Part shown: positions 1 through 23,345 of the stretch, in pieces
Layout: every line of letters begins with the position of its first letter
Numbering within the stretch: position 1 is the first letter of the stretch
Assembly: GCF_002237595.1 (NCBI RefSeq)
Contig: NZ_CP022529.1
Coordinates: 2,494,117 to 2,518,116, forward strand
Length of the DNA: 24,000 nt
Direction of reading: 5' to 3'
Source: Labrenzia sp. VG12
GTDB lineage: Bacteria; Pseudomonadota; Alphaproteobacteria; Rhizobiales; Stappiaceae
Position numbers and translations under genes: made by a program
The notes under the pieces: model-generated
What the model was told of the DNA's origin: nothing
Database searches by the model: none
What the model saw: only the letters and a program-made list of their open reading frames with translations

Positions 1-201
1 CAGTTTCCGTGAGCGGTTTCGCGCAGCAGAATGCCGGAAGACACTCATCCCGTCCGACGAAGTCACGCCTCCTGCCCGATTGAACCCACGCTCCATATCG
101 GGAGCGGTGTAGGTGACATAGTCCTGCCAGTCATCTTCCACCCACTGGCGTTCCGCGCGCGCGGACTGCAACTCGGACTTCAGGTCCTCGACGATCCCCA
201 T
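1..201 (-). CDS. Phage portal / head-tail connector protein, N-terminal fragment (runs off the window edge)
   Basis: The minus-strand frame from the ATG at 201 reads MGIVEDLKSELQSARAERQWVEDDWQDYVTYTAPDMERGFNRAGG...SVFRHSAARNRSRKL, 67 codons with no stop to position 1. Its ATG shares the A of the upstream gene's TGA (TGATG coupling). Its position after terS/terL and its N-terminal pattern fit a podovirus-type portal. The family call is from memory only. Confidence 0.5.
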   Translation of the reverse strand, partial: MGIVEDLKSELQSARAERQWVEDDWQDYVTYTAPDMERGFNRAGGVTSSDGMSVFRHSAARNRSRKL

Positions 202-428
202 CAGGCACGCCCGAGAAGTGTAACGCCCGGACGCGAGGCGCTGCCGAAATCGGGAACGCCGAGCGGGCTCGTCAGGTTGGTAGCGCGCGAACTATAGGCC
301 GCGGCCCGCCGTCGCCGGCCGTTTTCCTGAAGGTTCCTGGCCTGGCGCTGAGGATCGGGTTGCCGCGGTGGTGGCGGTGTCGGTTCCGGTTTCGGCTGCT
401 TCGCGCCGCCGCCTCCAAAGAGACACAT
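201..428 (-). CDS. Small Gly/Pro-rich phage protein (75 aa) immediately upstream of the portal
   Basis: ATG at 428 is preceded by GAAAGGAGCACCTC (strong SD). The protein starts MCLFGGGGAKQPKPEPTPPPPRQPDP and ends GVTLLGRA. As I recall, this low-complexity type occurs before portal genes in BPP-1-like/T7-like podovirus prophages. It is translationally coupled to the next ORF. Confidence 0.55.
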   Translation of the reverse strand: MCLFGGGGAKQPKPEPTPPPPRQPDPQRQARNLQENGRRRRAAAYSSRATNLTSPLGVPDFGSASRPGVTLLGRA

Positions 429-843: not shown

Positions 844-1242
844 TCACTGCGGTCCGCTTTCCAACTCGAAACCTTCGTCGATCCAGCCGGTAATCCCACC
901 AGCCATGATCTTCACGGGACGTTCAAGTTCTGCGAGCCGCAATGCGCCGCGCGCCGCGCCATTGCAATGAGGCCCTGCACAATAGGTCACAAACAGGGTG
1001 TCTTCCGGCCAATGGGCAAGCTTTGATCGTATGATCTTGCCGTGCGGCAGGTTGATGGCCCCCGGGATGTGTCCCTTGGCATAAAGAGCAGGACTGCGAA
1101 CATCCAAGAGTACAAATCCGGGATCGCTTTTCAATGCATCTTGGACATCCCAGCAATCTGTCTCGAATCTGAATTCCGACGCGAAATGTTCCGCCGCCAG
1201 GGTGCTCGAGGCCGCGGGTATCTTGGTAACATTGTTGGTCAT
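844..1242 (-). CDS. Rhodanese-like sulfurtransferase domain protein (132 aa)
   Basis: ATG at 1242 follows GGAAAGGAGACCTC. The sequence includes FVLLDVRSPALYAKGHIPGAINLP and the active-site loop YCAGPHCNGAARGA. The longer ORF start at 1347 lacks an SD and adds non-homologous residues. Confidence 0.85.
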   Translation of the reverse strand: MTNNVTKIPAASSTLAAEHFASEFRFETDCWDVQDALKSDPGFVLLDVRSPALYAKGHIPGAINLPHGKIIRSKLAHWPEDTLFVTYCAGPHCNGAARGALRLAELERPVKIMAGGITGWIDEGFELESGPQ

Positions 1243-1320: not shown

Positions 1321-2325
1321 ATGCCAAACATCTCGGTTTCCGCTCAACTGCCCCCCACGACCGCCCCAACAGGGCCGCTTGTGGTTGCCCTTGTCTATGA
1401 CGGCCTGTGCACTTTCGAGTTTGGCATCACGGCAGAAATCTTCGGCTTGACCCGGCCGGAATTCGGCAATGACTGGTACCGCTTTGCCAGCTGTGCGATC
1501 GAGGATGGCCCTTTACGGGCAGCTGGCGGACTAAGCATTTCTGCTGATCAGGGCATTGACGCCCTCGACCATGCCGACATCATTGTCGTTCCGGGCTGGA
1601 AGAGTGCTGACGCGAATATCCCTGCAAATCTCAAGGACAGGCTGGTCATCGCTCATCGGCGCGGTGCGCGGCTCGTATCGATCTGTTCTGGTGCGTTTGT
1701 TCTGGCAGCGACGGGCCTGCTCGATGGCAAGACAGCCACCACCCACTGGCGTTATGCCGAGCAGCTTCGCTCCCGTTTTCCCTCCATCACGGTGGATGAA
1801 GCATCGCTTTACCGGCTCGAAAACCGCGTTTCTACGTCAGCCGGAAGTGCGGCGGGCATCGACCTGATGCTCGAAATCATTCGGCGTGATTATGGACCGG
1901 ACAAGGCCAACAGTGTCGCAAGGCGCCTCGTTGTGCCCGCTCAGCGCCAGGGGGGACAGGCCCAGTACCTGGAACGTCCGGTTTCCTGCAGGCCAGAGAG
2001 TGCGATCGCCCCGCTCCTGGAAGATGTGCGCCGCCGGCTTTCGGAGAACTGGACAATCGAAGGCATGGCGGCGGGATGCCACATGAGCGCGCGCACCTTT
2101 CAGCGGCGTTTCATTGATGCTGTCGGCCTGACGCCGGGCGATTGGCTGACCGGAGAGCGCATCGAAGCGGCCAAGGAAATCCTCATCACAGGGCGCCAGG
2201 ACATGGAAACGGTGGCGGCACTGGTCGGCTTCGGCAGCGCGCATGCGCTACGCCACCATTTTCGAAAACGCCTTGGATTGAGCCCGACCGACTACCGGCA
2301 CTTGTTTCGCTCAGATGTAGCCTGA
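1321..2325 (+). CDS. ftrA: FtrA / GlxA-family transcriptional regulator (DJ-1/PfpI-like domain plus AraC-type HTH), 334 aa
   Basis: From the ATG at 1321: LVVALVYDGLCTFEFGITAEIFGL..., SICSGAFVLAATGLLDGKTATTHWRY, SAGSAAGIDLMLEIIR, then a C-terminal AraC HTH (ARTFQRRF...LRHHFRKRLGLSPTDYR). It matches the FtrA consensus as I remember it. The upstream in-frame extension to 1042 is antisense to the rhodanese gene. Confidence 0.85.
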   Translation: MPNISVSAQLPPTTAPTGPLVVALVYDGLCTFEFGITAEIFGLTRPEFGNDWYRFASCAIEDGPLRAAGGLSISADQGIDALDHADIIVVPGWKSADANIPANLKDRLVIAHRRGARLVSICSGAFVLAATGLLDGKTATTHWRYAEQLRSRFPSITVDEASLYRLENRVSTSAGSAAGIDLMLEIIRRDYGPDKANSVARRLVVPAQRQGGQAQYLERPVSCRPESAIAPLLEDVRRRLSENWTIEGMAAGCHMSARTFQRRFIDAVGLTPGDWLTGERIEAAKEILITGRQDMETVAALVGFGSAHALRHHFRKRLGLSPTDYRHLFRSDVA

Positions 2326-2503
2326 GCGCTGACAATGCTGCACTTCCGGCCAATCGGTATGAAGCGCTGCCACAAACACCATTCCACGAACATGACCTCA
2401 GGCAATCGTGCGCTTCCCTGACATAGGGTTAATTGCTAGACTAGTCCTCAAATATAACAGCACAAATAAAAGAGTGAAATGTCGAGACTGGCGAGGGACA
2501 GTT

Positions 2504-4330
2504 ATGGCGACAGACAAATTTCACATTTTTCTTATTCGACCAACCAAATATGACGATGACGGCTATCCGATTCATTGGCATAAAACCACAATCCCGGCCA
2601 ATTCACTTTCCTGCCTTGCAGGAATTTCTTTGGATTGCAAGGAACGGCAAGTCCTTGGTCCCGATGTGGAAATTGCGACCCGCGCCATCGATGAAGGCAA
2701 CACCCGCATTCGCCCCCACCAGATCATCCATGAGATCCGGCGCGATGGGGCACGTGGCCTGATCTGCTTCGCCGGTGTCCAGAGCAATCAGTTCCCTCGT
2801 GCCATTGACCTCGCCCAGCCGTTTCTGGCGGCAGGCCTGCCCGTCGCTGTCGGCGGATTTCATGTGACCGGCTGCATGGCAATGCTTGACGAAATGCCAA
2901 GGGACATGCGCGACGCATTGGACATGGGGGTTTCCTTTTTTCTCGGCGAGGCAGAAGGCGGGCGCTTTGACGCTGTGCTGCGAGACGCCTATGCGGGCGT
3001 CCTGAAACCGGTCTACGACTACACCAGGGATCTTCCGTCACTTCCAGGGCAACCGGTGCCTGTCGTTGAAAAGGCACAGGTAGAACAGTCGACATTGGGC
3101 TACGGCAGTTTCGATCTCGGTCGCGGGTGCCCGTTTGAATGCAGTTTTTGCTGTATCATCAATGTGCAGGGCAGAGGCAGCCGCTTTCGCTCGACCGGGG
3201 ACCTTGAGAAGATCATCAGGGATCACGCCAGGATCGGTGTCACCAAGTTCTTCGTCACGGACGACAATTTCGCACGCAACCGGAACTGGGAAGCCTTTCT
3301 CGATACGCTGATCCGGCTTCGCGAGGAAGACGGGCTCAGGTTCACCCTGATCATTCAGGTCGATACCCTGTGCCACAAGATCCCGAATTTCATAGACAAA
3401 TGCGTTAGAGCCGGTGTCGATCAGGTGTTTATCGGGCTGGAAAACATCAATCCGGACAACCTGGCCGGCTCCAAGAAAAGACAGAACAAGATCACCGACT
3501 ACCGTGAGATGTTCCTCGCTTGGAAGAAACACCCCGTGGTCCTGACCGCCGGTTACATCATCGGGTTTCCCAACGACACCCGAGAATCCGTCCTTCACGA
3601 TATCGATGTCCTCAAGCGCGAGCTTGCTGTCGACATACTCTCACTGTCGATCCTCACGCCGCTGCCAGGCTCCGAGGACCACAAGAACGCCGTGGCCGCA
3701 GGCACCTGGATCCATCCGGATCTCAATCGCTACGATTTGACCCATAGTGTGATCCGGCATCCGAACTTGCCCGGCGACGAGCTCGACAAGCTCTACATCG
3801 AAGCCTGGGCAACCTTCTATTCCCCGGACCATTGCCGCACCATCCTGCGCCGCGCGGCTGCGCTTGGAAGCAACAAGAAAATTGCGACCATGAACCGGCT
3901 GCTGATCTATGGAACCGGATCACGGCTCCACAATGTCTTTTCGCTCGACGGCGGATTCTTGCGATTGAAATACCGTCGTGACCGCCGCCCGGGTTTGCCG
4001 GTCGAAAGCCCTCTGATCTTCTATCCCAAACATGCCTTTGAAACGGTGCGCAACATTTTGCTGCTGATGCTCACACGCTGGCGTTACCTGCGCTTCATCA
4101 AGGCACTCTGGAGCGACCCCGGGCGCTTTGACTACGTGGATGCGGCCATTGCACCGGTTGGCGCGGGCGATTTCGAGAGGCTGAAACTCTACACCGCAAC
4201 AAGAGGCGGACAAGAAGCTGTTGCCAATCATCGCAAGATGGAAGCCATCAAGAAAAAGGCTCGGTCAAAAGCACTTGCCGGCACCTTAAAAACGAAAATG
4301 GGTGTCACATATCCTGGCCCGCATTCATAA
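2504..4330 (+). CDS. B12-binding-domain (class B) radical SAM enzyme, 608 aa; substrate unknown
   Basis: ATG at 2504 is preceded by GAGGGA. The N-terminal Rossmann-like region (LICFAGVQSNQF...PVAVGGFHVTG) precedes the radical SAM cluster motif GRGCPFECSFCC (CxxxCxxC). It continues with FFVTDDNF and ENINPDNL, then a ~170-aa C-terminal extension. The N-terminus IFLIRPTKYDDDGYPIHW recalls HpnR-like methylases, but that is a weak recollection. Confidence 0.85.
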   Translation: MATDKFHIFLIRPTKYDDDGYPIHWHKTTIPANSLSCLAGISLDCKERQVLGPDVEIATRAIDEGNTRIRPHQIIHEIRRDGARGLICFAGVQSNQFPRAIDLAQPFLAAGLPVAVGGFHVTGCMAMLDEMPRDMRDALDMGVSFFLGEAEGGRFDAVLRDAYAGVLKPVYDYTRDLPSLPGQPVPVVEKAQVEQSTLGYGSFDLGRGCPFECSFCCIINVQGRGSRFRSTGDLEKIIRDHARIGVTKFFVTDDNFARNRNWEAFLDTLIRLREEDGLRFTLIIQVDTLCHKIPNFIDKCVRAGVDQVFIGLENINPDNLAGSKKRQNKITDYREMFLAWKKHPVVLTAGYIIGFPNDTRESVLHDIDVLKRELAVDILSLSILTPLPGSEDHKNAVAAGTWIHPDLNRYDLTHSVIRHPNLPGDELDKLYIEAWATFYSPDHCRTILRRAAALGSNKKIATMNRLLIYGTGSRLHNVFSLDGGFLRLKYRRDRRPGLPVESPLIFYPKHAFETVRNILLLMLTRWRYLRFIKALWSDPGRFDYVDAAIAPVGAGDFERLKLYTATRGGQEAVANHRKMEAIKKKARSKALAGTLKTKMGVTYPGPHS

Positions 4331-5984
4331 CCGGCGCATTCGACGGAATTTCATCCGTGTCAGATGTCGGTGCAAAGGCCCCGCGCACATTCGCTTGGAA
4401 GCTGTTTGTCACCAAGATCTGTTCACCGATCTCATCGGTATAGGTCAGGGTCATGCGTGGGCCAAACCCTTCGTCATCGGTTCCACCCTTTTTCCAGTCG
4501 CTTCCCGTGTGCGCGTTTGGCATCAATGACCATCGCCTTGCCGTGATGCCAAGTGTTGCCAGAAGTCCCTCCACTTCCTTGCTGATGTAGTCACGGTTTG
4601 TCCCACTCGTGGCCGGGTAGACCTTTTCCACCGGGTGTTTGAACACGACACCCTTTGCCTCGGATGCAAATTCCGTCAGGCCCCATGCCATGGAAAACCG
4701 CGCGAGCGCCAACGCTTCTGCCGCGTCTTCATCGCCGCCCATATCCAGAAAACTCTGCTTCCAGAGTTTGGCATGTTCCTCCAGTGCTTCGGCTTCCTCT
4801 TCGGCGGTCAAGCCAAGTTGACGATACCGGTCGAAGGACGTTTCCCGGGCAGGAACAGCGACCGGTGGCCTTCCTGGGACCGAATGGAATGTATCAACAC
4901 CAGACCGGACGGTTTCCTGATCCAGGGCCAGCTCGACCGGCGCTGCGTCCTGAGCTGACGCGTCGGGAAAAAGCCGTGCGCTTTCGCCGCCATCTGCCTC
5001 CGGTCCCTCCGGCTCACCTGCCTCGCCGCCTGGCGTCGCTGATCCATCCAGGTAGATGAAGTAGCCGCCATATTTTCGTGCGAAATCCTTTTTCCAGGGC
5101 ATGCCCAGCGACCTGGCCGTCGCAAGCTCGCCAAGGATGGAGGACGCCAGCGCAGGATCGCTCCGATGAAGCCGGCGAATATTTTTCTCCGTTGCGCGCC
5201 AATCGACGTCACCGAAGTCTTCGGCAATGTGTTCCGGAAAGACGCTGTCTCCAAACAATTCGTCCCAGAGGCCTTCGCTACCGTTCGACGGATCCGAGCC
5301 GTCGGGAGTTCCCTGCCATGCCTCGTTCAGAATTTCGAGGGATCGGTTGGTCCTGTTGTCGAGGTCATGGATCTGCCCCTTGTGTTTCCGGACAAACCTG
5401 TCTTCAAGGCGCTGATAAACGGCGGCATAGCCAGCCGCATGTTGGCCTGCTGCATCGTCGAAATGCGTGGACAGAAACTCTGAAACCGGCCTCTCGAAGA
5501 CCCTTCTGTTTTCAAACCCGGCCGCGGGTCGGCGCCGCTCCGAAGGTGGCAGGTCCTCTTTTGTAATATTGATGTCGACAGCGGCCAGTGCGGCGGACAC
5601 GAGCCCGTTGCTGTTGACGATCCAGTCTGAGTTGACGTCGCCGATTGCTGCAAGCGTGTCGTAATCCACTTCCGACTGCTCAACCAACTGGGCGAAGAAG
5701 GCCATCTTGAGATATTTTTCTTCAAGATCCCCTCCGCTCTCCAGAACAACGGTGTCTTCCTGAGAGCGTTCGGCGGGCGGAACCCAGTCTCGCGACCGTT
5801 CCGAGTAGGGACCGATTTCCACGTCGATATTCCCGACGACGGACAGCGGCCCAGGTCCGCCCCGAATGACAAATTCTTTTCCTTCGTTATTCGTATAGAT
5901 GATGTAGAGATGCCCGAAATCCTTCGAAGCGGCATCCGTCACACGAAGCTCGATAGTTTCCATTTCAGTCTCCGAAACTGGCAT
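4305..5984 (-). CDS. Orphan 559-aa protein: conserved N-terminal ~140-aa domain, acidic low-complexity linker, C-terminal domain of unknown function
   Basis: ATG at 5984 is preceded by GGAGGCCTGTCTG. This long ORF is the only long open frame across most of this span; the other ORFs there are much shorter (202 aa or less). No signal peptide or TM segment is apparent. The N-terminal region reads GHLYIIYTNNEGKEFVIRGGPG...VDYDTL...NSNGLVSAALAAVDI. The linker GGEAGEPEGPEADGGES is acidic. The GTG at 6086 is an unlikely start. Confidence 0.7.
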   Translation of the reverse strand: MPVSETEMETIELRVTDAASKDFGHLYIIYTNNEGKEFVIRGGPGPLSVVGNIDVEIGPYSERSRDWVPPAERSQEDTVVLESGGDLEEKYLKMAFFAQLVEQSEVDYDTLAAIGDVNSDWIVNSNGLVSAALAAVDINITKEDLPPSERRRPAAGFENRRVFERPVSEFLSTHFDDAAGQHAAGYAAVYQRLEDRFVRKHKGQIHDLDNRTNRSLEILNEAWQGTPDGSDPSNGSEGLWDELFGDSVFPEHIAEDFGDVDWRATEKNIRRLHRSDPALASSILGELATARSLGMPWKKDFARKYGGYFIYLDGSATPGGEAGEPEGPEADGGESARLFPDASAQDAAPVELALDQETVRSGVDTFHSVPGRPPVAVPARETSFDRYRQLGLTAEEEAEALEEHAKLWKQSFLDMGGDEDAAEALALARFSMAWGLTEFASEAKGVVFKHPVEKVYPATSGTNRDYISKEVEGLLATLGITARRWSLMPNAHTGSDWKKGGTDDEGFGPRMTLTYTDEIGEQILVTNSFQANVRGAFAPTSDTDEIPSNAPVMNAGQDM

Positions 5985-6113
5985 CAGACAGGCCTCCGGC
6001 AAACGATGGTGCCGAACAGCAAATGACGTCGTTGAATCAACGCGAAGTCGTGAGGGTTTCCGGGAAAGCGTGATGCGCTGCTTCACTCACAGCGTGCCTT
6101 GGGCGGAACGTTT

Positions 6114-6347: not shown

Positions 6348-6755
6348 TCAAACCAGCGAGAAGGCGGCAAGGGCGGCGGCTTGAAACACGCAGTAAAGCA
6401 GCAGCACAGAGAGTATGCGTCTTATCCATGTCACTCTTGCAGCCCTGCGCGGATAGCACAGGGCCAACTGGAGAAGACTGAGTACAACGTCGGCTAAAAA
6501 AAACGCAATTACGTAATTCCGGTAATCGTTAAACAAAAGAGAAATAAGGTCGCGATCAAAAAAGATACAAAGGTACAAATAGAGAAAAAAAGTGGTGCTC
6601 AACCCAACAAAACTGTCAGAAAGGCGACCGATCTTGGAAGTGTCAGGCCCCAGCACCAGGCGGACATTGAGATAAACTCTGAATAGAAGTGACACGGGCC
6701 AGAAAGCCAGGAACCCAAAATACGCAACAACCTGCAGATACTCGAGCCATTCCAT
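6348..6755 (-). CDS. Small integral membrane protein, about 4 predicted TM helices (135 aa)
   Basis: Four hydrophobic stretches: VVAYFGFLAFWPVSLLF, GLSTTFFLYLYLCIFF, YVIAFFLADVVLSLLQLAL and ILSVLLLYCVFQAAALAAF. The gene is markedly AT-rich (e.g. 6480-6620) compared with its neighbours. No family was recognised. Confidence 0.7.
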   Translation of the reverse strand: MEWLEYLQVVAYFGFLAFWPVSLLFRVYLNVRLVLGPDTSKIGRLSDSFVGLSTTFFLYLYLCIFFDRDLISLLFNDYRNYVIAFFLADVVLSLLQLALCYPRRAARVTWIRRILSVLLLYCVFQAAALAAFSLV

Positions 6756-6883: not shown

Positions 6884-7336
6884 CTAAAAATTGTCCTGCT
6901 CCCCACCACGCGCACCGTCGCTCCCGGTCCAGGCATAGATCAGGAAGTCTTCGCCGCCCCGGCCGTAGGACTTGAGCCGGCCTTCCCGTTCCGCCCCAAG
7001 TGCCTCAATCCAGCGATGGGCAATATCGTGCCCACACATCGTGATCACCTGAAGTCGCCGGCAATCACGTTCAATCTGCGGGCGCAACGACAGGATATGC
7101 CGCGTGATCAGCGGCACACAGCGCTTGAATCGCGCTGTTCCAAAAGCCCAGGCCTGCCAGTGTTGCGGATCGAAAGCCGACGCCTGGCTGAAGCCGAAGG
7201 CTGCCGCCGGCTGGCCGTCATACCAGACTGACCAGACCATGCCTGGCACTGCCGTCTCGATCGCGCAGACACCCAGGGCGCGCGTGTCCCAGACCTCCCA
7301 GAGACACGAGATTTCCTCAAAATCCTGCTGACGCAT
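6884..7336 (-). CDS. Phage-associated 150-aa protein downstream of terL (possible GNAT-like fold; function unknown)
   Basis: ATG at 7336. A CTG at 7384 overlapping the terL stop would add LIKDLCLRDVSYIAAN, which looks like part of the domain, so the start is uncertain. The pattern W..WYDGQPAAAFGF...W.AWAFGT...RWIEALGAE...GEDFLIYAW recalls small proteins that follow terminase genes in podovirus prophages. The ORF-track version (to 7747) overlaps terL and is an artefact. Confidence 0.6.
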   Translation of the reverse strand: MRQQDFEEISCLWEVWDTRALGVCAIETAVPGMVWSVWYDGQPAAAFGFSQASAFDPQHWQAWAFGTARFKRCVPLITRHILSLRPQIERDCRRLQVITMCGHDIAHRWIEALGAEREGRLKSYGRGGEDFLIYAWTGSDGARGGEQDNF

Positions 7337-7380
7337 GTTCGCTGCAATGTAGCTGACATCACGCAGACACAGGTCCTTGA

Positions 7381-8961
7381 TCAGAAGCCGCCGAGGGGAT
7401 CGTCCAGCGGCTTCATCTGGCTTCGGCCGGTGTTCGTCAGAATTTTTTTCAGGTCCGCCCTGTCTTTCCATCCCCATGCCTCGACCATCGCATCGGCTTC
7501 GTCCGGCGACGCACCGAGCCGTTCCTTGATGTCTTCCTTGCTCTCGATCAGGATCCGGCCGCCCTTCATCTTCCAGCGATGCGCCGTCAGCTGCGCCTTG
7601 ATCGTGGCGGAGCGCCTGATCGCGACCCCCGCCCCGCTTTTGGGGTGAAGCGCCTCGCGAAACCGCCAGTAAAGCTGGGCCCGCAGATTGTAGAAGGGAA
7701 TGCGGCTGTCTTTCGCGGTCTCGCCGGACTGGGCGGAAAAGACGCATTTTTCGACAGGAATACCGTTCTCACGGGTCAGAAATCCGACCGTATCTCCACC
7801 CCAGCCGCCGGTACAGTCGACCACGATCAGCGCATTGTCCCTCCGCTCCCGGATGATTAGCGCACCGACATCCGCTCCATCCTTGGTATCAGCCCCCTTG
7901 CGGACGATATTCTGTTCAAACCGCCGGCCGTGCAAAGGCTGCAGGACAGTCTTGTCCTTACCACCCTGCGCAACATCCACAGCCAGCACATCCATCGGCT
8001 GGTCCTTGTCGACATTCTCGTCATAGCGCTGAAAGGCCAGGTCAACCCAGTCGGACGGGATCACCTGCCAATCATGATCCTGTCGGGCGGCCAGAAAATC
8101 GCCGGTCTTCAGCGCGGTCCGCATCGGCTCCGGCATCTGGTCGAGCTGCGCATCATAGTCAGCGCCCAGAAACTTGTTGTCCTGCCGCCGTGCGGGAATG
8201 AAGGTGCGGCTTTTCGGCGTGCGCAATTCGCCCTCGATCTCGACCGGTTCCGGCCCGTCAACCCAGACGGTTCGAATGGCGTCGCCATCGTCGATGAAAA
8301 CGGCCCAGAGCAGGTCTCCGGGCTTGACCTTGCCATGGAGCGGGTGAAGCGGGTCAAGCCAGGGTCCGAACCAGTCACTCAGATAATCACCCTGTCCACC
8401 AATTGGCGGATTGGTAGCGATCAGGCCACGGCAACGTTGTCCCATCCGGCTGCTGCGCAGCCAGCCGAGCACAAAGATGATCTTGCGCGGGTCCATCTGC
8501 GCCCCTTCATCGAAGGCCTTCAGGTCATGGTCGCGCCCTTGCCAGTCTTCTTCAGAACCAGGCAGCCCCAGATGACCGAACTCGATCAGGCGTTCGTCCG
8601 GGCCAACCCAGCGTGGCGGATTTCCGGTGATCTTTCCCATCTCCGCCTGCCGCATCAGCGCGTTCATGCGTTCGATCAGCCCCTTCAGTGATTTTAGTGA
8701 TTGCCGGAAGATGGCGGCCTTGTGATGGGCGAACAGCGCCAGGCCGGCGATCAGGTCCGTTTTGCCACCACCGGCGGCACCACCATAGAGTGTCAGATCA
8801 GCCTTTGAGAAATAGCCGTCCGTCTGGGGGCCATGTTGCGGCCGCCAGACGTCGAACTGATCCAGAACCCCGGCTTCATCCAATTTCTTTTGCAGGGCGA
8901 CACGATTGGGTGGCTCCATCCTGTCAATGGTTCTGATCAGTGTTTCCAGAGCCGTCGTCAT
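7381..8961 (-). CDS. terL: Phage terminase large subunit (526 aa)
   Basis: Walker A-like motif LYGGAAGGGKTDL near the N-terminus. A C-terminal nuclease-domain pattern is present (VDVAQGGKDKTVL, IVVDCTGGWG, PDEADAMV). Size and position after terS fit. The start could instead be M15 at 8919. Confidence 0.9.
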   Translation of the reverse strand: MTTALETLIRTIDRMEPPNRVALQKKLDEAGVLDQFDVWRPQHGPQTDGYFSKADLTLYGGAAGGGKTDLIAGLALFAHHKAAIFRQSLKSLKGLIERMNALMRQAEMGKITGNPPRWVGPDERLIEFGHLGLPGSEEDWQGRDHDLKAFDEGAQMDPRKIIFVLGWLRSSRMGQRCRGLIATNPPIGGQGDYLSDWFGPWLDPLHPLHGKVKPGDLLWAVFIDDGDAIRTVWVDGPEPVEIEGELRTPKSRTFIPARRQDNKFLGADYDAQLDQMPEPMRTALKTGDFLAARQDHDWQVIPSDWVDLAFQRYDENVDKDQPMDVLAVDVAQGGKDKTVLQPLHGRRFEQNIVRKGADTKDGADVGALIIRERRDNALIVVDCTGGWGGDTVGFLTRENGIPVEKCVFSAQSGETAKDSRIPFYNLRAQLYWRFREALHPKSGAGVAIRRSATIKAQLTAHRWKMKGGRILIESKEDIKERLGASPDEADAMVEAWGWKDRADLKKILTNTGRSQMKPLDDPLGGF

Positions 8962-9415
8962 CTCCCGGCAGATCCTTTGCGGTCAGAAGTGCCATCACGC
9001 CCAGCGCGATTTCATTCGAACTTCGTGGTTTCAACGCCTCGAGCCGTCCAGCGTCGTCCGGCCCAGCCAGGATGTTCCAGCTTTCCAGCTCCGAACGGTC
9101 CCGCCACCCGGCCCGGTTCTTCATGTTCAGCGCCCAGGCACTGGCGTTGAACTTTGGCAACTCGCCCTGGCTGCCAGCCTTGCCAATACGTTCCCACTCC
9201 AGAAGCCCGCGCCGTGCGGCCGCTTCAAGTTGTTCAGCTGGAAAATCCTCCGGGAACTGCTCCGCGTAGTACCGAAGGGTCTTGCGGTCCGCACCTGGAA
9301 AGCTGTCGATCGAAAAACCGGCGGCAATATGGTCGCAGAATGCGCTGCAAGCCCGCCGCCTGTCTTCCGGTGTCGGCCATGGCAGCGCGCAAGCGCCGCT
9401 GCCCATTTGAGCCAT
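8924..9415 (-). CDS. terS: Phage terminase small subunit (163 aa)
   Basis: ATG at 9415 follows GAGGTGACGC. N-terminal HTH-like region (RRRACSAFCDHIAAGFSIDSFPGADRKTLRYYAEQFP) and WALNMKNRAGWRDRSE are typical of terS. It overlaps the terL start by 38 nt. Confidence 0.7.
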   Translation of the reverse strand: MAQMGSGACALPWPTPEDRRRACSAFCDHIAAGFSIDSFPGADRKTLRYYAEQFPEDFPAEQLEAAARRGLLEWERIGKAGSQGELPKFNASAWALNMKNRAGWRDRSELESWNILAGPDDAGRLEALKPRSSNEIALGVMALLTAKDLPGDDDGSGNTDQNH

Positions 9416-9845: not shown

Positions 9846-11069
9846 GTGCCCGTCTTGGCCGACCCTTCCAACATCTCCCGGCGCATGTCCCTGAGTGCAG
9901 TGGTTCAGGCGATTGCCAGCTACAGCCCGATCTCCCGCGCAAGCGTGTCCAAGATCACCGGCCTGTCCAAGCAGACCGTGTCGGAGATTGTCGGCAATCT
10001 GGAAGAAGAAGGCTGGGTCAGGACCGTTGGGCAAACCGAAGGCCATGTCGGTCGCCGGGCTGTCGTCTACGAGATCGTGCCGGAGGCCGCCTCTGTGGCA
10101 AGTGTTGATCTCGGCGGCACCAAGATCCGCGTCGCCATCTGCAACTTGACCGGCGCCGTTGTCTCCGAACTGGTGGAACCGACCGACAAGGCCGGCGGCA
10201 AGGCGGTGATCGATCAGGTCGCCGATCTGATCCGTCGCACGGCCGCCCAGGCCGGAACCACCGCGAAACTCCCGCGTGTTGCAGTGATCGGCGTCCCGGG
10301 CGCCCCTGACCGGGAAACCGGCAACATCCGCATGGCGCCGAATATTCCCGGCATCGGCGAACTCGATGCACCGGCCCTTTGGCGCGACGCACTCGGCATC
10401 GAGGTCTTTGTCGAAAACGACGTCAATCTCGCCGCGCTTGGCGAACACTGGCTGACCAAACGCAGCGACAAGGACGACCTGATCTACGTCTCCATCGGCA
10501 CCGGCATCGGCGCAGGCATCGTTATTGGCGGTCAGCTCCATCGCGGACTGAACGGGGCTGCCGGTGAGATCGGCTATCTGCCCTTCGGCGCCGATCCCTT
10601 CGAGCCGGAGAGCCTGGAAACCGGCGCCCTGGAACGGGTCGCCGCCACACACGCCATTACGGAACTCTACGCCCGGAAAACCGGCAGGAGCCTCGACGTG
10701 CCCGCCATTTTCGAAGCCGCCAATGACGGTGACACGGCCGCGTCCGAAACCCTTGACCAGACAGCCCGCCAGGCGGCGCGCGTCATGGCAGCCCTGGCAG
10801 CCGTGCTCGACCCGTCCTGCATCGTCATCGGCGGCTCCATCGGTGCGCGCTATGAATTGTTTTCAAGGGTGGAAAATCAGCTGAAGGCCTGTTTTCCCCG
10901 CCCAGTCCTGATTGAAAAGTCAACGCTCGGCAATCATGCCGCACTTGCCGGTGGCGCCTCCGTCGCCCTTTCCCGCCTGCACCTGTCCCTTTTCACCGAG
11001 GGATTGAAAGGGGTGGAAATCGCCGTGCCGCCCCCTTCCATCGAGACGTTCAGGAAGGGAGCAGCCTGA
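9846..11069 (+). CDS. ROK-family transcriptional regulator (N-terminal wHTH plus sugar-kinase-like domain), 407 aa
   Basis: wHTH region SRASVSKITGLSKQTVSEIVGNLEEEGWV, then ASVDLGGTKIRVA (DxGxT) and SIGTGIGAGIV...GAAGEIG. The canonical ROK Zn motif (GH...CxCGxxGCxE) is replaced by GYLPFGADPFEPESLETGALE, which has no Cys. The start is GTG 9846 or TTG 9855 (GAGG at 9843-9846). The stop overlaps the next ATG (TGATG). Confidence 0.85.
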   Translation: MPVLADPSNISRRMSLSAVVQAIASYSPISRASVSKITGLSKQTVSEIVGNLEEEGWVRTVGQTEGHVGRRAVVYEIVPEAASVASVDLGGTKIRVAICNLTGAVVSELVEPTDKAGGKAVIDQVADLIRRTAAQAGTTAKLPRVAVIGVPGAPDRETGNIRMAPNIPGIGELDAPALWRDALGIEVFVENDVNLAALGEHWLTKRSDKDDLIYVSIGTGIGAGIVIGGQLHRGLNGAAGEIGYLPFGADPFEPESLETGALERVAATHAITELYARKTGRSLDVPAIFEAANDGDTAASETLDQTARQAARVMAALAAVLDPSCIVIGGSIGARYELFSRVENQLKACFPRPVLIEKSTLGNHAALAGGASVALSRLHLSLFTEGLKGVEIAVPPPSIETFRKGAA

Positions 11070-12327
11070 TGAGCTCTGAGTTTCTTCAAACACTGAGCGA
11101 TCATCAGGACCGGGACGCGGACCTGAAACTGCTGCAAGAGGCCATAGGCCATGAAAGCATCACCGGCAATGAAACCGACTTTGCCTCTTTCCTGAAGAGC
11201 CGGATGGACGAACTCGGCCTGCAAACCGGATCGGGTGACTTTCTGCCCGGACGTCTTAATGTCTGGGGGAAACAAAAGCAGCCCGTGCGGACGCAAAACG
11301 GCTCCTGTTTGTCGGCCACACCGACACAGTCCACGTCCGTGGCTGGCAAGACAATTGGTCGGGCAAACCGCAGGAGAACCCGTTTTCGGGTGCGCTGATC
11401 GATGGCCACATCTGGGGTCGGGGCGCTTGTGATCTGAAGGGCGGTATCTGTGCGGCGCTGGCCGGCTTGCGCCTGTTGCAATCGGCAGGCCACCAACCTG
11501 CAGGCGGCCTCTCCTTTGCCTTTATCGGCGACGAGGAAAGCGGAGAACCCGGAACGGGCGTCAGCGCCGGAGCCCACGACCTTGTCAAACGCATCCAAGC
11601 CGGCGAAATCGCCAAACCCGATTTCGCAGTCTATGTCGAACCGACAAAGCTCGACGTCTATACCGCGCAGATCGGCTTTTTCATTGCAGATATCACCATC
11701 ACCGGAAAATCCGCCTATTTTGGCACACCGGAGCTTGGCACCGACGCCCTGAAAGCCACCCACGCCATCCTCGAACAGATCTGGGCGCATGAGGCTGACC
11801 TGACCGCCGGGCCGAAACACGACCTGGTCGGCGCATCGTCGGTCCTTGTGACGGATATCCGCGGCGGCGGCTACATCGCCGTGCCCGGCGAATGCCGCTT
11901 TTCCCTGATCCGCAAGTTACGCCCCGGCGAAGATCTGAACGAGGCCGTTGCGGCACTGGAAACTGTCATCCACGCAGCTCCCGTTGCCGACGGCATATCC
12001 CTTCAGATCGACTATCCCGCAGGCCGGGACCACAAATTCGGCGGTTCCCCGGTCGAGATTGCCCATGACCATCCGGATGCGCGGCTGCTGGCGCGCTGCA
12101 TCGGTGAGGTCCATGAACCGGGAGGCGCCCTTGGCGGCGCACCCTATTGGTCGGAAATGCCGTTTCTCGTCAACGAGATCGGCTGTCCGGCGGTTTACTG
12201 CGCTCCGGGCGACATCGCCCTGGCGCACACATTCGAAGAGCGCATCGAGGTGGAAAGCTACCTGGCAGCTGTCAGGGCTTTTGCGCTGTTCGTGGCCGAA
12301 TTTTGCGGCCTGGAAGAAGCACGGTAA
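11069..12327 (+). pseudogene. M20-family metallopeptidase / deacylase (ArgE/DapE/CPG2-like) with a broken reading frame
   Basis: The N-terminal 67 codons (MSSEFLQTL...GRLNVWG) are in one frame. The rest (ETKAARADAKRLLFVGHTDTVHVRGW...GRGACDLKGG...FIGDEESGE... to 12327) is in another. The junction is at the G5 run 11265-11269; one more G would give a continuous ~419-aa M20 protein. Confidence 0.8.
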
Positions 12328-12352
12328 CAACCAACAACCAGAGGGTACCGAC

Positions 12353-13423
12353 ATGAAATCTGCAGCAAGACACCTGGCGGCTTCCGCCCTGTTCACACTG
12401 ATGAGCGTCACCGCTCTGTCTCCCGCCGCCATGGCCCAGACCGTCGGCCCGGGCGGGGAAAGTGCGACGCCGTCCGCCGACGTCGTCGTCGGCGATGACA
12501 GCCTGGAGGCGATCCGCGGCGCGGGCTACAAGGCGGCCCTGCTCTGGCACGACCAGTCCGATTTCGTCAACGCCGTCAGCGCCGGTGCAAAGGACGAATT
12601 CGAGCGGCTCGGCATCGAGGTAGTGGCCACCACCAGTGCCGGCTTTGACGCCGCCAAGCAGCGCAGCGACATCGAAACCTCGCTTGCCAAGGAACCGAAC
12701 ATCATTCTGTCGCTGCCGCTCGACCCGGTCACTTCCGCGGCAGCCTTCAAGGAAGCCCGTGACGGTGGGGTCTCTCTGGTGTTTCTCTCAAATCTGCCGG
12801 CCGGATACGAGCATCCGCGCGACTATGCCGCCATTGTCACCGACGATCTTTTCCAGATGGGCAAGCAGGCCGCCGACGCCCTGGCAAGCGCCATGGGCGG
12901 CAAGGGCACCGTCGGCTGGATCTATCATGACGCCGACTATTACGTGACCAACCAGCGGGACAACGCCTTCAAAACGACGATCGAAAAGGACTATCCGGAA
13001 ATCTCCATCGTCGCCGAACAGGGCATCAGCGATCCGGCCCGCGCCGAAGAGATTGCCAACGCGATGCTTTTGAAGAACCCGGATCTCGGCGGCATCTATG
13101 TCACCTGGGCAGGTCCTGCGGAAGGTGTGCTCGCGGCCCTGCGCGCCAATGGCAACAAGACCACGAAAATCGTCACGCTCGATCTGTCTGAGCCGGTCGC
13201 ACTCGACATGGTCCGGGGCGGCAATGTCGCTGCCATCGTCGCCGATGAAGCCTATGAGCTTGGCCGAGCCATGGCAGCCGCCGCAGCGCTTCGTCTTGCC
13301 GGCAAGGATGTGCCGCCTTTCGTGACAGCGCCTGCCATCACCGTGACCGCCGACACGGTGGTCGAGGGATGGAAAAAGTCGCTCAACATCGACGCGCCGG
13401 CAAGCGTTTCCTCCGCGCAGTGA
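12353..13423 (+). CDS. ABC transporter periplasmic substrate-binding protein, sugar/RbsB-FrcB type (356 aa)
   Basis: ATG at 12353 follows GAGGG. Signal peptide MKSAARHLAASALFTLMSVTALSPAAMA. The body is PBP type I-like (ALLWHDQSDFVNAV..., VTDDLFQMGKQAADAL). Confidence 0.85.
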   Translation: MKSAARHLAASALFTLMSVTALSPAAMAQTVGPGGESATPSADVVVGDDSLEAIRGAGYKAALLWHDQSDFVNAVSAGAKDEFERLGIEVVATTSAGFDAAKQRSDIETSLAKEPNIILSLPLDPVTSAAAFKEARDGGVSLVFLSNLPAGYEHPRDYAAIVTDDLFQMGKQAADALASAMGGKGTVGWIYHDADYYVTNQRDNAFKTTIEKDYPEISIVAEQGISDPARAEEIANAMLLKNPDLGGIYVTWAGPAEGVLAALRANGNKTTKIVTLDLSEPVALDMVRGGNVAAIVADEAYELGRAMAAAAALRLAGKDVPPFVTAPAITVTADTVVEGWKKSLNIDAPASVSSAQ

Positions 13424-13433
13424 CCGGCAATAC

Positions 13434-13455
13434 GGCGGGCAGCTCTCTGCCCGCC
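13434..13455 (+). other. Intercistronic GC stem-loop between the SBP and permease genes
   Basis: ggcgggcag-ctct-ctgcccgcc: a 9-bp perfect stem with a 4-nt loop, starting 11 nt after the SBP stop. No T-tract follows. It is likely an mRNA-stabilising or attenuating hairpin rather than a full terminator. Confidence 0.4.
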
Positions 13456-13483
13456 GGCACTTCCTTGCAGCAAAGAGACTGAC

Positions 13484-14437: not shown

Positions 14438-14449
14438 CCGGAGCTTCCC

Positions 14450-18365: not shown

Positions 18366-18442
18366 GGTTTTTCTCCAAAACGGCACACTGACGTTTCCCT
18401 GCTTGTCTCACTCTCTGTTGCAAGAGGCAAGAGGAGATCCCG

Positions 18443-19603: not shown

Positions 19604-19606
19604 TCC

Positions 19607-22416: not shown

Positions 22417-22425
22417 GAGACCAGA

Positions 22426-23343: not shown

Positions 23344-23345
23344 CC

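What the first reader, a model, noticed from the sequence alone, without database searches (positions are those of the whole stretch)
2504..4330. Orphan class B (B12-binding) radical SAM enzyme with no biosynthetic context, next to an FtrA regulator and a rhodanese
The gene has a clear B12-binding-like N-terminal domain, a CxxxCxxC cluster and a long C-terminal extension. Class B radical SAM enzymes normally sit in pathways for hopanoid methylation, bacteriochlorophyll, phosphonates, antibiotics or RiPPs. Within the window I see none of the expected partners: no shc/hpn genes, precursor-peptide machinery, cobalamin genes or methyl-acceptor pathway. Its neighbours are a sulfurtransferase/regulator pair and the orphan module inside a phage-derived operon. 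It has its own AT-rich upstream region (2400-2500). The substrate may be a small molecule, a lipid, or one of the neighbouring proteins or peptides.
Basis: partly seen in the sequence, partly recalled or inferred. Interest (0 to 1): 0.6.

Follow-up and report, generated by a model that had tools for sequence, protein, structure and literature searches.

The report
Prophage-carried orphan radical SAM enzyme
The gene is real and encodes a vitamin-B12-type radical SAM enzyme from a very large, highly conserved family that nobody has characterised; in this bacterium it is not a stray pathway gene but cargo kept alive inside a decayed prophage, and its substrate is still unknown.

Summary
Window 2504-4330 (+) is an intact 608-aa radical SAM gene. 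It has a CxxxCxxC cluster, a five-stranded Rossmann N-domain and a basic helical C-domain. It fails every curated family model: AprD4, BchE, HpnJ, HpnR and YgiQ all score about 10% of their cut-offs. The genome has no hopene cyclase.

The protein belongs to a large family, 50-57% identical across phyla, with up to 4 copies per genome. The genes stand alone: no conserved neighbour was found in 80 loci.

The new result is the context. This copy's subclade (77-96% identity) sits 0.5-3.1 kb from a BPP-1-like terS-terL module in 7 of the 9 genus genomes that carry an orthologue at 74% identity or more. It lies in the terL-portal cargo slot. One sibling prophage looks complete. Here the portal is a pseudogene, yet the rSAM is under strong purifying selection (dN/dS 0.03-0.11).

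Rhodanese, FtrA and rSAM form a recurrent cargo cassette. A 46%-identical homologue lies inside N4-like phage contigs.

Function is unknown. The best inference is a single-gene enzyme acting on a phosphate-bearing substrate that any host supplies. Cobalamin use is untested.

The scan had already flagged this family as orphan on other DNA, and had flagged this block in the same genome.

The parts
2504..4330 (+). Radical SAM gene, 608 aa. Residues 1-172: Rossmann (B12-domain-like) N-domain. About 200-440: rSAM TIM-barrel core with C209/C213/C216. About 440-608: basic helical C-domain. The last 26 bp overlap the convergent gene 4305-6086.
2326..2503 (+). FtrA-rSAM intergenic region (48.9% GC; 44.6% at 2400-2500) with an SD GAGGGA at 2493-2498. 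It presumably holds the gene's own promoter. No riboswitch. Poorly conserved among orthologues.
1321..2325 (+). FtrA-type AraC/DJ-1 regulator (334 aa), co-directional with and upstream of the rSAM. Part of the recurrent cargo cassette.
844..1242 (-). Single-domain rhodanese (132 aa), divergent from FtrA. Part of the cargo cassette.
204..428 (-). 75-aa phage gene that precedes the portal in sibling prophages (91% identical to the THAF82 copy). It marks the far edge of the cargo slot.
1..201 (-). 5' end of the BPP-1-type portal gene (PF12236 family in the sibling prophage). It continues upstream of the window and is a pseudogene: 2 in-frame stops and 1 frameshift.
4305..6086 (-). 593-aa mosaic phage protein. 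Only its C-terminal ~155 aa are shared (43-48% identity) with the 540-750-aa proteins in the same region of sibling prophages.
6348..6755 (-). 135-aa ORF with no family match and no homologue in the sibling elements.
6884..7366 (-). About 160-aa protein that always follows terL in this phage lineage (71-82% identity). It holds the position of bbp24 in BPP-1. The longer ORF gives a weak PHROG 308 match.
7381..8961 (-). Large terminase, 526 aa, intact. 40% identical to Bordetella phage BPP-1 terL and 82-97% identical to single copies in 30 of 61 genomes of the genus.
8948..9415 (-). Small terminase-like gene (about 156-163 aa), 64-69% identical to those of the sibling elements.

Best explanation
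Shown. Window 2504-4330 encodes an intact radical SAM enzyme of class-B architecture that is under selection. It has a Rossmann N-domain, a [4Fe-4S]/SAM TIM-barrel core and a basic helical C-domain. It belongs to a large, very conserved and functionally uncharacterised family whose genes stand alone. This copy belongs to a Roseibium/Labrenzia subclade carried as accessory cargo on the strand opposite the late operon. It sits in the variable slot between terL plus a small gene and the portal of BPP-1-like (Rauchvirus-like) prophages. In this genome the prophage has decayed: the portal is a pseudogene and the lysogeny module is gone. The rSAM survives, together with a divergent rhodanese/FtrA pair, as a three-gene cargo cassette seen in several sibling elements.

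Inferred. The enzyme works alone. It travels between hosts, and in an unrelated N4-like phage, without any constant partner gene. Its substrate must therefore be something every host already contains. The invariant Arg cluster (R487/R491/R494/R495), the invariant K325/Q327/N328 within the basic KKRQNK motif, and the basic C-domain point to a phosphate-bearing or polyanionic substrate. Candidates are RNA or the ribosome, a nucleotide or a phospho-sugar, and a phospholipid.

Proposed chemistry. Reduced [4Fe-4S] cleaves SAM to the 5'-deoxyadenosyl radical. That radical abstracts H from an unactivated carbon held between the Rossmann domain and the barrel. The substrate radical is then either methylated from methylcobalamin (about 45%) or resolved without cobalamin by elimination or rearrangement, as in AprD4 (about 35%).

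In the lysogen the gene would act as a conversion gene that benefits the host, which would explain why it outlives the prophage.
For: Gene and fold.

Not in any curated family. Best scores are AprD4 54.7/500, BchE 52.5/481, HpnJ 48.3/578, HpnR 47.5/650 and YgiQ 14.8/462.

Family size and conservation: more than 8000 hits at 50-57% identity; 587 50%-clusters at E<=1e-30; 15 of 301 Pseudomonadota species genomes, including 1.7-2.3 Mb genomes; up to 4 copies per genome in the genus.

Stand-alone: no neighbour family in more than 12 of 80 loci. The core paralogue lies among housekeeping genes.

Phage linkage: THAF82 prophage with S24 repressor, terS, terL, portal and Bbp19; L115, L116, L117; G009; G046 with an intact portal, and G054. 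Of 9 genus genomes with an orthologue at >=74% identity, 7 have it 0.5-3.1 kb from terL. The BPP-1 gene order gives the slot. The phage-linked rows fall in one clade with 98% support.

Co-divergence: terL and rSAM pairwise identities correlate (Spearman 0.67).

Selection: dN/dS 0.03-0.11 with saturated dS.

Decay of this prophage.

N4-like phage homologue.

Basic C-domain. Invariant Arg/Lys residues.
Against: Cobalamin binding is unproven. PF02310 is not matched, and the closest solved relative, AprD4, binds none.

The phage-borne clade is a small part of a mainly chromosomal family. Only 8 of 2.9 million IMG/VR contigs carry a homologue, and none of 50,697 isolated phages does. Phage carriage therefore says little about the family's general role.

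Two close orthologues (G058 at 81%; R. album at 74-75%) lie outside any phage context.

The substrate class rests only on charge and on conserved Arg/Lys residues.

The terL-rSAM correlation uses non-independent pairs.
Confidence: 0.6

Rival explanations
1. Mobile RNA- or ribosome-modifying methylase, working like Cfr or RlmX. The family C-methylates a conserved rRNA, tRNA or ribosomal-protein site. The chromosomal paralogue (L002 clade) would be the housekeeping copy. The prophage-borne clade would be a diverged, mobile copy that changes ribosome properties, for example tolerance to ribosome-targeting compounds.
For: Stand-alone genes without pathway neighbours, as is usual for RNA-modification enzymes. 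Very high conservation across phyla. Basic C-domain and an invariant Arg cluster. A cobalamin-dependent rSAM that methylates 23S rRNA riboses (RlmX) now exists as a precedent (PMC13602947, citing Ishiguro et al. 2026). MgmA/QCMT, which modifies a protein, is among the nearest relatives. In two sibling prophages the neighbouring cargo is an antibiotic-kinase-fold APH protein. The family is retained in 1.7-2.3 Mb genomes.
Against: Only about 5% of Pseudomonadota genomes have the family, and 6 of 24 genomes in the first genus sample lack it. Up to 4 paralogues and tandem arrays occur, which is unusual for one rRNA site. No recognised RNA-binding domain (TRAM, PUA, THUMP) was found by Pfam. The protein is not a member of YgiQ, RlmN, Cfr, MiaB or RimO.
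Confidence: 0.2
2. Cobalamin-independent, AprD4-like enzyme acting on a small phosphorylated or sugar-type metabolite. It would catalyse radical dehydration, elimination or rearrangement, and the Rossmann domain would serve only to hold the substrate.
For: AprD4 is the best hit by sequence (E 2.3e-15; profile search), by NCBIfam and by structure (TM 0.69-0.70 on the target). AprD4 has a Rossmann-related domain but no cobalamin (PMC12931638). PF02310 is not matched. The beta1-alpha1 loop, where B12 domains carry their lower-ligand motif, is replaced by an invariant Y16-D17...G20-Y21-P22...W25 hairpin. An APH-fold kinase is co-cargo in two prophages.
Against: The AprD4 model scores 54.7 bits against a cut-off of 500, and the match covers only the rSAM core. 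Cobalamin-dependent TsrM, CysS, TokK, QCMT and OxsB match the structure nearly as well. GGxH- and S-containing loops typical of B12 domains are invariant. No reductase partner like AprD3 lies nearby.
Confidence: 0.2
3. Peripheral-membrane lipid-tailoring enzyme. It would methylate or otherwise modify acyl or isoprenoid chains of phospholipids in place, like stand-alone CFA synthases or HpnP/HpnR.
For: Long basic amphipathic C-terminal helices. Stand-alone and multi-paralogue, like cfa genes. The N4-like phage copy lies three genes from a FabA-like hot-dog protein (E 6e-27). Weak NCBIfam similarity to the ladderane/lipid B12-rSAM model TIGR04072. An earlier scan note paired a possible family member with a lipid desaturase in one genome (e1-3248608).
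Against: No transmembrane segment. No lipid-synthesis gene is enriched among neighbours. No hopanoid pathway in the genome. Phage carriage of a lipid-tailoring enzyme has no obvious rationale. The FabA-like neighbour is seen in one phage lineage only.
Confidence: 0.12
4. FtrA-controlled sulfur or thiol-stress enzyme that works with the neighbouring rhodanese.
For: The rhodanese<-|->FtrA->rSAM order recurs in the window, G052, G046, L115 and L116/L105. Sulfur- or thiol-related genes occur next to other members: TauD adjacent in 7 of 80 loci (an 8th has it about 7.7 kb away), GST/DUF899/HxlR in L117, and a DMSP-lyase-fold protein in R. album.
Against: All cassette carriers tested fall in one subclade, so this is one acquisition. 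Sibling prophages carry the rSAM without FtrA or rhodanese. No rhodanese or FtrA homologue lies near any of about 90 other family members. The FtrA-rSAM intergenic region is not conserved.
Confidence: 0.1
5. Prophage-encoded anti-phage defence. The enzyme would make a modified nucleotide or another toxic product, as viperins do, and so protect the lysogen from superinfection.
For: It is located in a prophage accessory slot on the opposite strand. Its distribution within the genus is patchy. One orthologue lies next to IS110 and T6SS VgrG/PAAR genes. The nearest relative performs sugar-ring dehydration, the same reaction type as viperin (my own knowledge of viperin chemistry).
Against: No PADLOC system matches beyond a generic rSAM-core hit (27.7 bits). 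Most family members sit in stable housekeeping surroundings. A lytic N4-like phage carries a copy too.
Confidence: 0.06
6. Unlinked gene of a known pathway: a hopanoid methylase (HpnR/HpnP), HpnJ, or the anaerobic Mg-protoporphyrin cyclase BchE. One database record names an orthologue this way.
For: One source labels the R. album orthologue as the anaerobic cyclase. There is weak core similarity to BchE, HpnJ and HpnR.
Against: Scores are about 10% of the curated cut-offs. The 99.99%-complete genome has no squalene-hopene cyclase. The family occurs in non-phototrophs and in phages.
Confidence: 0.02

Closest known systems
AprD4 (radical SAM 1,2-diol dehydratase of apramycin biosynthesis; PDB 6FD2; NF033070)
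   Same: Best match by sequence, profile and structure. Same order of a Rossmann-type N-domain followed by an rSAM TIM barrel with CxxxCxxC. The alignment runs from the cluster loop to about residue 430.
   Different: About 19-20% identity, and 54.7 bits against a family cut-off of 500. AprD4 is 450 aa and lacks the ~170-aa basic C-domain. It sits in an aminoglycoside gene cluster with a partner reductase, whereas this family stands alone. AprD4 binds no cobalamin, and that property is untested here.
Class I cobalamin-dependent radical SAM enzymes (TsrM 6WTE/6WTF, TokK 7KDX, CysS 9N1B-D, QCMT/MgmA 9CCB, OxsB 5UL4)
   Same: Overall architecture: a five-strand Rossmann domain N-terminal to the rSAM barrel, plus a C-terminal substrate domain. 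Foldseek E 1e-13 to 1e-10. The domain description follows PMC12931638. GGxH-type and S-containing loops are invariant.
   Different: 11-16% identity. PF02310 is not matched. The beta1-alpha1 loop carries a family-specific invariant YD..GYP..W hairpin. The known enzymes lie in antibiotic, cofactor or MCR-maturation contexts, and this one has none.
BchE / HpnJ / HpnR / PhpK-type B12-rSAM families (TIGR02026, TIGR03471, TIGR04367, TIGR04479)
   Same: Weak similarity in the rSAM core (45-53 bits). Similar length to BchE.
   Different: All scores are far below the cut-offs of 481-650 bits. The genome has no hopene cyclase. No pathway neighbours.
RlmX, a cobalamin-dependent rSAM that 5'(S)-C-methylates riboses of 23S rRNA in E. 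coli (Ishiguro et al. 2026, cited in PMC13602947)
   Same: A precedent for a stand-alone B12-type rSAM that acts on a universal macromolecule rather than in a biosynthetic cluster.
   Different: The YgiQ-type model TIGR03904 gives only 14.8 bits here and finds nothing in this genome. Whether RlmX is YgiQ is my assumption and is unverified.
Accessory genes in the terL-portal interval of Bordetella phage BPP-1 (bbp24 GNAT, bbp23, bbp22)
   Same: Same phage type (terL 40% identical) and the same gene order: terS-terL-small gene-variable genes-portal-Bbp19-protease.
   Different: BPP-1 carries no rSAM, and none was found in 50,697 isolated phage genomes. The Roseibium cargo is transcribed against the late operon.
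Cfr versus RlmN (a mobile, diverged copy of a housekeeping radical SAM methylase)
   Same: Analogy only. The genome has one vertically inherited paralogue (L002 clade, which tracks the genus) and one mobile, diverged paralogue.
   Different: A different rSAM class (A, not B-type) and no sequence relationship. A resistance function is not shown here.

Membership tests
Radical SAM superfamily (PF04055) | CxxxCxxC cluster loop and a Pfam match above the gathering score | tested here: met
   C209/C213/C216 are invariant in 51 sequences. PF04055 scores 54.3 bits against 29.5.
Class B (cobalamin-dependent) radical SAM | Rossmann-type cobalamin-binding domain fused N-terminally to the rSAM barrel (fold level) | tested here: met
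   AF2 model with a 5-beta/5-alpha N-domain. Foldseek matches to TsrM, TokK, CysS, QCMT and OxsB with probability 1.00.
Class B (cobalamin-dependent) radical SAM | Sequence match to the B12-binding domain model PF02310 | tested here: inconclusive
   No hit for this protein at E<=0.01. A relative, P0132, gives E 1.7e-4, below threshold. TIGR04013/TIGR04014 alignments extend into the N-domain of the paralogue and of the phage homologue.
Class B (cobalamin-dependent) radical SAM | Actually binds and uses cobalamin | not testable with these tools
   The host can make cobalamin: CobN scores 1599 bits. AprD4, the nearest relative, does not bind it.
AprD4 family diol dehydratase (NF033070) | Score at or above the curated cut-off (500 bits) over the full length | tested here: not met
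   54.7 bits, residues 204-429 only.
HpnR hopanoid C-3 methylase (TIGR04367) and hopanoid pathway genes in general | Model score >=650 bits and a squalene-hopene cyclase in the genome | tested here: not met
   47.5 bits. TIGR01507 gives no match in the 99.99%-complete genome. HpnP was not tested with a model of its own.
BchE anaerobic Mg-protoporphyrin cyclase (TIGR02026) | Model score >=481 bits | tested here: not met
   52.5 bits, although one source names the R. album orthologue this way.
YgiQ / UPF0313 (TIGR03904) | Model score >=462 bits | tested here: not met
   14.8 bits over 32 residues. No family member in the genome.
MiaB/RimO methylthiotransferases (TIGR00089) | Model score >=251 bits and an N-terminal three-Cys auxiliary cluster | tested here: not met
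   26.2 bits. The only Cys conserved outside the rSAM motif is C290, nearly invariant.
Prophage accessory (moron-type) cargo | Flanked on both sides by genes of one phage; not part of the conserved phage core; found in only some members of the phage lineage | tested here: met
   terS-terL-orf160 lie on one side, and the 75-aa gene and portal on the other. The same slot is used in THAF82, G046, L115 and L117. terL is in 30 of 61 genomes, and the linked rSAM in 7.
Known or candidate anti-phage defence systems (PADLOC-DB 2.0) | Match to a system-specific model | tested here: not met
   Only a 27.7-bit generic rSAM-core hit to PDC-M51A. The neighbours give nothing.

The most novel reading that the evidence does not exclude
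This family would be a new functional class of B12-type radical SAM enzyme. It would work as a single gene and modify a universal, phosphate-bearing cell component: rRNA, tRNA, the ribosome or a nucleotide. Temperate and lytic phages would have captured it repeatedly to reprogramme or protect the host, as a Cfr-like or viperin-like cargo in a class-B scaffold. The Roseibium prophage clade would then be a naturally mobile, diverged copy of a housekeeping modification enzyme.
Probability: 0.15. Interest if true: 0.8.

Novelty: new variant of a known kind. Interest (0 to 1): 0.45.

Why it matters
The family is one of the larger blocks of radical SAM enzymes with no known function. It has thousands of sequences, about 100 invariant residues, and members in streamlined 2-Mb marine genomes. 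It offers no genomic clue to its substrate.

The prophage-borne clade gives a practical way in. It is a natural single-gene transfer experiment: closely related lysogens exist with and without the gene. The gene must also work on something every host provides. This narrows the search to RNA or the ribosome, nucleotides, or bulk lipids, and it favours deletion strains analysed by omics over pathway reconstruction.

It also adds a B12-type radical SAM to the list of genes that temperate phages keep as lysogenic-conversion cargo. If the enzyme proves cobalamin-independent, it would become a second solved reaction type in the AprD4-like fringe of the class B network.

Tried and rejected
- Riboswitch or other RNA element upstream: none in the window at gathering thresholds, and only a chance miRNA hit at E 3.9.
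- Promoter and terminator scan: no more sites than in shuffled sequence.
- Shared regulatory boxes (FNR/FixK, Fur, Irr, RirA, PhoB) and enriched 8-mers in 86 upstream regions: none. Alignment of orthologue upstream regions shows almost no conservation.
- Conserved neighbours in 80 loci with +-10 kb flanks: the largest neighbour cluster occurs in 12 of 80 loci and is a generic ABC ATPase. TauD occurs in 8 of 80 loci (adjacent in 7), mostly within one Reyranella-like clade.
- Informative domain fusions in longer relatives (700-830 aa): none.
- PADLOC defence models: none.
- Isolated phage genomes: no homologue. BFVD gives only distant B12-like rSAMs at 11-13% identity.
- IMG/VR contigs L108 and L114: the rSAM lies near a contig or prophage edge, so I did not count them as phage-borne.
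- Membrane anchoring: no hydrophobic segment.
- Literature: no paper on this family was found in five searches.
- GTG 2408 as the start codon: rejected, because orthologues align from the ATG at 2504 and an SD precedes it.
Full report
**1. The observation**

The ORF runs from ATG 2504 to the stop at 4330 and encodes 608 aa. A GAGGGA ribosome-binding site lies 5 nt upstream. Seven orthologues begin at the aligned methionine, so the upstream GTG at 2408 is not the start.

Pfam finds only Radical_SAM, at residues 206-368 (54.3 bits, cut-off 29.5). The motif C209-x3-C213-x2-C216 is invariant in 51 homologues. The only other conserved cysteine is C290, so there is no auxiliary cluster.

An AlphaFold2 model built on that alignment is confident (mean pLDDT 90.9, pTM 0.89). 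It shows three parts:
- a 5-beta/5-alpha Rossmann domain (residues 1-172);
- the TIM-barrel core;
- a C-terminal region dominated by two helices of about 33 residues each.

The last 170 residues are basic in every family member (pI 9.6-11.0). No transmembrane segment exists. The region 2400-2500 has 44.6% GC against 59.9% for the genome. It contains no Rfam element.

**2. What the protein is not**

Every curated NCBIfam model fails by about an order of magnitude, and matches only the rSAM core:

| Model | Score (bits) | Cut-off (bits) |
|---|---|---|
| AprD4 | 54.7 | 500 |
| BchE | 52.5 | 481 |
| Sden_1168 | 49.5 | 575 |
| HpnJ | 48.3 | 578 |
| HpnR | 47.5 | 650 |
| PhpK | 45.2 | 600 |
| MiaB/RimO | 26.2 | 251 |
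| YgiQ | 14.8 | 462 |

The genome is one contig and 99.99% complete. It has no squalene-hopene cyclase and no YgiQ. It does have the CobN cobaltochelatase.

**3. What it resembles**

By sequence, the best PDB hits are:
- AprD4 (6FD2, E 2.3e-15);
- the MCR glutamine C-methyltransferase (9CCB, E 2.3e-9);
- TsrM and TokK, weakly.

By structure, the ranking is AprD4 (TM 0.69-0.70 on the target), then TsrM, CysS, 9CCB, TokK and OxsB, and then MiaB/RimO. This is the 'class I' architecture of B12-dependent rSAM enzymes described in PMC12931638. The same review states that AprD4 falls in the B12-rSAM network but does not bind cobalamin.

Evidence on the B12 domain is mixed:
- PF02310 does not match this protein.
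- A relative gives a sub-threshold hit.
- TIGR04013/04014 alignments reach the N-domain in the paralogue and in a phage homologue.
- The loops after beta3 (GVQSNQFPRA) and beta4 (GGFHVxG) are invariant and look like the S-x-L and GG loops of B12 domains. That reading is my inference.
- The beta1-alpha1 loop carries a family-specific invariant hairpin: Y16, D17, G20, Y21, P22, W25.

Cobalamin use is therefore open.

**4. The family**

More than 8000 sequences match over their full length at 50-57% identity. They come from Alpha-, Beta- and Gammaproteobacteria, Acidobacteriota and Nitrospirota. A search of 50%-identity representatives gives 587 clusters at E<=1e-30. Source names are generic, such as 'radical SAM protein' or 'B12-binding domain-containing radical SAM protein', or plainly wrong, such as BchE or pyruvate formate-lyase activase.

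An even sample of the phylum finds the family in 15 of 301 genomes. Six of these are small genomes of 1.7-2.3 Mb from one family-level group. Within the genus, 18 of 24 sampled genomes have it, with up to four copies. Tandem arrays occur in some MAGs. This genome has a second copy, 52% identical, at C1:1773075-1774844.

I extracted ORFs from 80 loci with +-10 kb flanks, clustered them and counted neighbours. No neighbour family occurs in more than 12 loci, and the most frequent ones are generic (ABC ATPase, SDR, TctC, TauD) and restricted to particular clades.

Individual contexts vary:
- dnaG-rpoD;
- NifU-YidD and ThrRS;
- polysaccharide genes with IS110 and T6SS genes.

The gene therefore stands alone throughout the family. 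Two earlier scan notes had flagged what appear to be family members as orphans on other DNA.

**5. The real context of this copy**

On the minus strand the window holds:
- terS (8948-9415);
- an intact 526-aa terL (7381-8961);
- a small conserved gene (6884-7366);
- at the other end, a 75-aa gene (204-428) and the start of a portal gene (1-201).

Upstream of the window lie the rest of the portal, Bbp19, a protease-like gene and an endolysin.

The terL is 40% identical to that of Bordetella phage BPP-1. The BPP-1 gene order is terS-terL-bbp24-bbp23-bbp22-portal-bbp20-Bbp19-protease, and it matches.

The same rSAM clade occupies the same slot, convergent with terL, in these elements:

| Element | rSAM identity | Features |
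|---|---|---|
| Labrenzia sp. THAF82 | 81% | Apparently complete prophage: S24 repressor, RNase T, DUF6362, 574-aa portal |
| L115 | 85% | |
| L116/L105 | 82% | Same chromosomal site as the window |
| L117 | 77% | |
| G009 | 77% | |
| G046 | 83% | Contiguous portal |
| G054 | 78% | |
| G057, G075, G052 | 78%, 81%, 96% | Linkage judged from coordinates |

Across 61 species-level genomes of the genus:
- terL is present once, uninterrupted, in 30.
- An rSAM orthologue at >=74% identity is present in 9.
- In 7 of those 9 the two genes lie 0.5-3.1 kb apart.
- The exceptions are G058 (81%) and the R. album type (74-75%), which have no phage gene within 10 kb.

In a maximum-likelihood tree of 120 family members, all Roseibium phage-linked copies fall in one clade with 98% support. 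That clade is separate from the genus-wide chromosomal paralogue clade (100% support).

Pairwise identities of terL and rSAM correlate (Spearman 0.67; the pairs are not independent). dS between copies is saturated, while dN/dS is 0.03-0.11. The association is therefore old and the gene is under purifying selection.

In this genome the prophage is a relic. The portal has two in-frame stops and a frameshift, and the lysogeny module is missing. The rSAM has outlived the phage.

**6.

Rhodanese (844-1242, minus strand) and FtrA (1321-2325, plus strand) are divergent, and the rSAM follows FtrA. This three-gene order recurs in G052, G046, L115 and L116/L105. The carriers placed in the tree belong to one subclade.

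Other sibling elements carry different cargo:
- an APH-fold kinase in THAF82 and G054, whose best PDB relatives are APH(2'')-Id and other antibiotic kinases (E 3e-9);
- LysE/PpoB2/DUF899/GST/HxlR in L117.

No FtrA or rhodanese homologue lies near any other family member.

The 593-aa protein (4305-6086) shares only a C-terminal module of about 155 aa with the 540-750-aa proteins of sibling prophages. It is a mosaic phage protein, not a partner of the enzyme.

**7. Other phages**

No isolated phage genome has a homologue. Of 8 IMG/VR contigs that do:
- One is the THAF82-type provirus.
- Five (L109-L113) are related contigs, four of them with identical match statistics. L111, the one annotated, is a genuine low-GC phage with N4-like virion RNA polymerase, terL and structural genes. 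It carries a 537-aa, 46%-identical homologue a few genes upstream of terL, beside a 2OG-Fe(II) oxygenase and a FabA-like protein.
- Two are ambiguous because the rSAM lies near a contig or prophage edge.

**8. Mechanism**

The following are shown:
- the rSAM cluster motif and fold;
- the class-B-type architecture;
- single-gene mobility;
- purifying selection.

The rest is inferred. The gene moves between hosts and into an unrelated phage without a constant partner, so its substrate and reductant must be supplied by any host. Three features suggest a phosphate-bearing or polyanionic substrate:
- the invariant R487/R491/R494/R495 motif;
- the invariant K325/Q327/N328 within the KKRQNK motif;
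- the basic C-domain.

I rank the substrate options as follows:
- RNA or the ribosome, about 0.2. RlmX, a cobalamin-dependent rSAM that methylates 23S rRNA riboses, is now a precedent (PMC13602947, citing Ishiguro et al. 2026).
- An AprD4-like reaction on a small metabolite, about 0.2.
- A lipid, about 0.12.
- A sulfur-linked role with FtrA and rhodanese, about 0.1.
- Anti-phage defence, about 0.06.
- A known hopanoid or bacteriochlorophyll role, about 0.02.

For the chemistry, I put methyl transfer via cobalamin at about 45% and cobalamin-independent radical elimination or rearrangement at about 35%.

**9. Novelty and verdict**

The architecture is known, and the family exists in databases under generic names. 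Three things are new:
- The family is an orphan as a whole.
- This copy is stable cargo of a BPP-1-like prophage lineage and survives the decay of the prophage.
- An unrelated lytic phage has captured a homologue.

I class it as a new variant of a known kind, of moderate interest (0.45). It is a good target for function discovery, but no unexpected biology has been demonstrated yet.

**10. Limits**
- The primary RlmX paper was not in the library.

Noticed in passing
window 7381-8961 (-) and genus genomes G003-G075: The BPP-1-like terL is present as a single, uninterrupted 526-aa copy (74-97% identity) in 30 of 61 species-level genomes of the genus. In this genome the adjacent portal is a pseudogene. 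Either this is a very successful prophage lineage, or the terS-terL module has been domesticated.
   Followed up: partly
window 1-201 (-) and G000:C1:2492680-2494317: The portal gene of the prophage relic has two in-frame stops and one frameshift relative to the 574-aa THAF82 portal. Homologues of that prophage's S24 repressor, RNase_T and DUF6362 genes were not found within +-20-30 kb.
   Followed up: yes
G000:C1:1773075-1774844 (L002): A second family member, 52% identical, belongs to a clade that tracks the genus. In a relative it lies between NifU/YidD and EamA/ThrRS. It is the vertically inherited paralogue.
   Followed up: partly
L102 11797-12699 (-); L122 7511-8386: In two sibling prophages the gene next to the rSAM is a 300-aa APH-fold kinase. 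Its nearest solved relatives are aminoglycoside, capreomycin, viomycin and macrolide phosphotransferases (E 3e-9 and weaker).
   Followed up: partly
L111 9654-15796: A low-GC N4-like phage contig carries this gene order: RepL-like gene, rSAM homologue (537 aa), 2OG-Fe(II) oxygenase, two unknown genes, FabA-like hot-dog protein, terL. This may be an accessory metabolic block. The host is unknown.
   Followed up: partly
L025 (7091, 10001, 11991), L048 (7210, 10001), L095 (8062, 10001): Tandem arrays of two or three family paralogues occur in some soil alphaproteobacterial MAGs. This hints at heteromers or successive reactions.
   Followed up: no
window 4305-6086 (-): This 593-aa protein has a divergent N-terminal part and a ~155-aa C-terminal module shared with 540-750-aa proteins of sibling prophages. 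That mosaic pattern is typical of phage receptor-binding or ejected proteins. It has no Pfam, PHROG or PADLOC match.
   Followed up: partly
G000:C1:5189013-5189789 (L003) and 2562150-2562878 (L004): Two further B12-type rSAM genes (open frames of 557 and 636 aa) match only PhpK, ApyD and HpnR models, weakly. They are also unassigned.
   Followed up: partly
window 9846-16461 and 17424-23999: The rest of the window is ordinary chromosome: a ROK regulator, a sugar-type ABC transporter with a YhfX-like racemase-fold gene, a second FtrA-like AraC/DJ-1 regulator, and an acyl-CoA dehydrogenase / CoA ligase / enoyl-CoA hydratase / BKACE cluster.
   Followed up: partly
genomes G197, G234, G261, G272, G284, G293: Six small genomes (1.7-2.3 Mb) from one family-level group of the phylum each keep one copy of the rSAM family. 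That is notable for an enzyme of unknown function.
   Followed up: no
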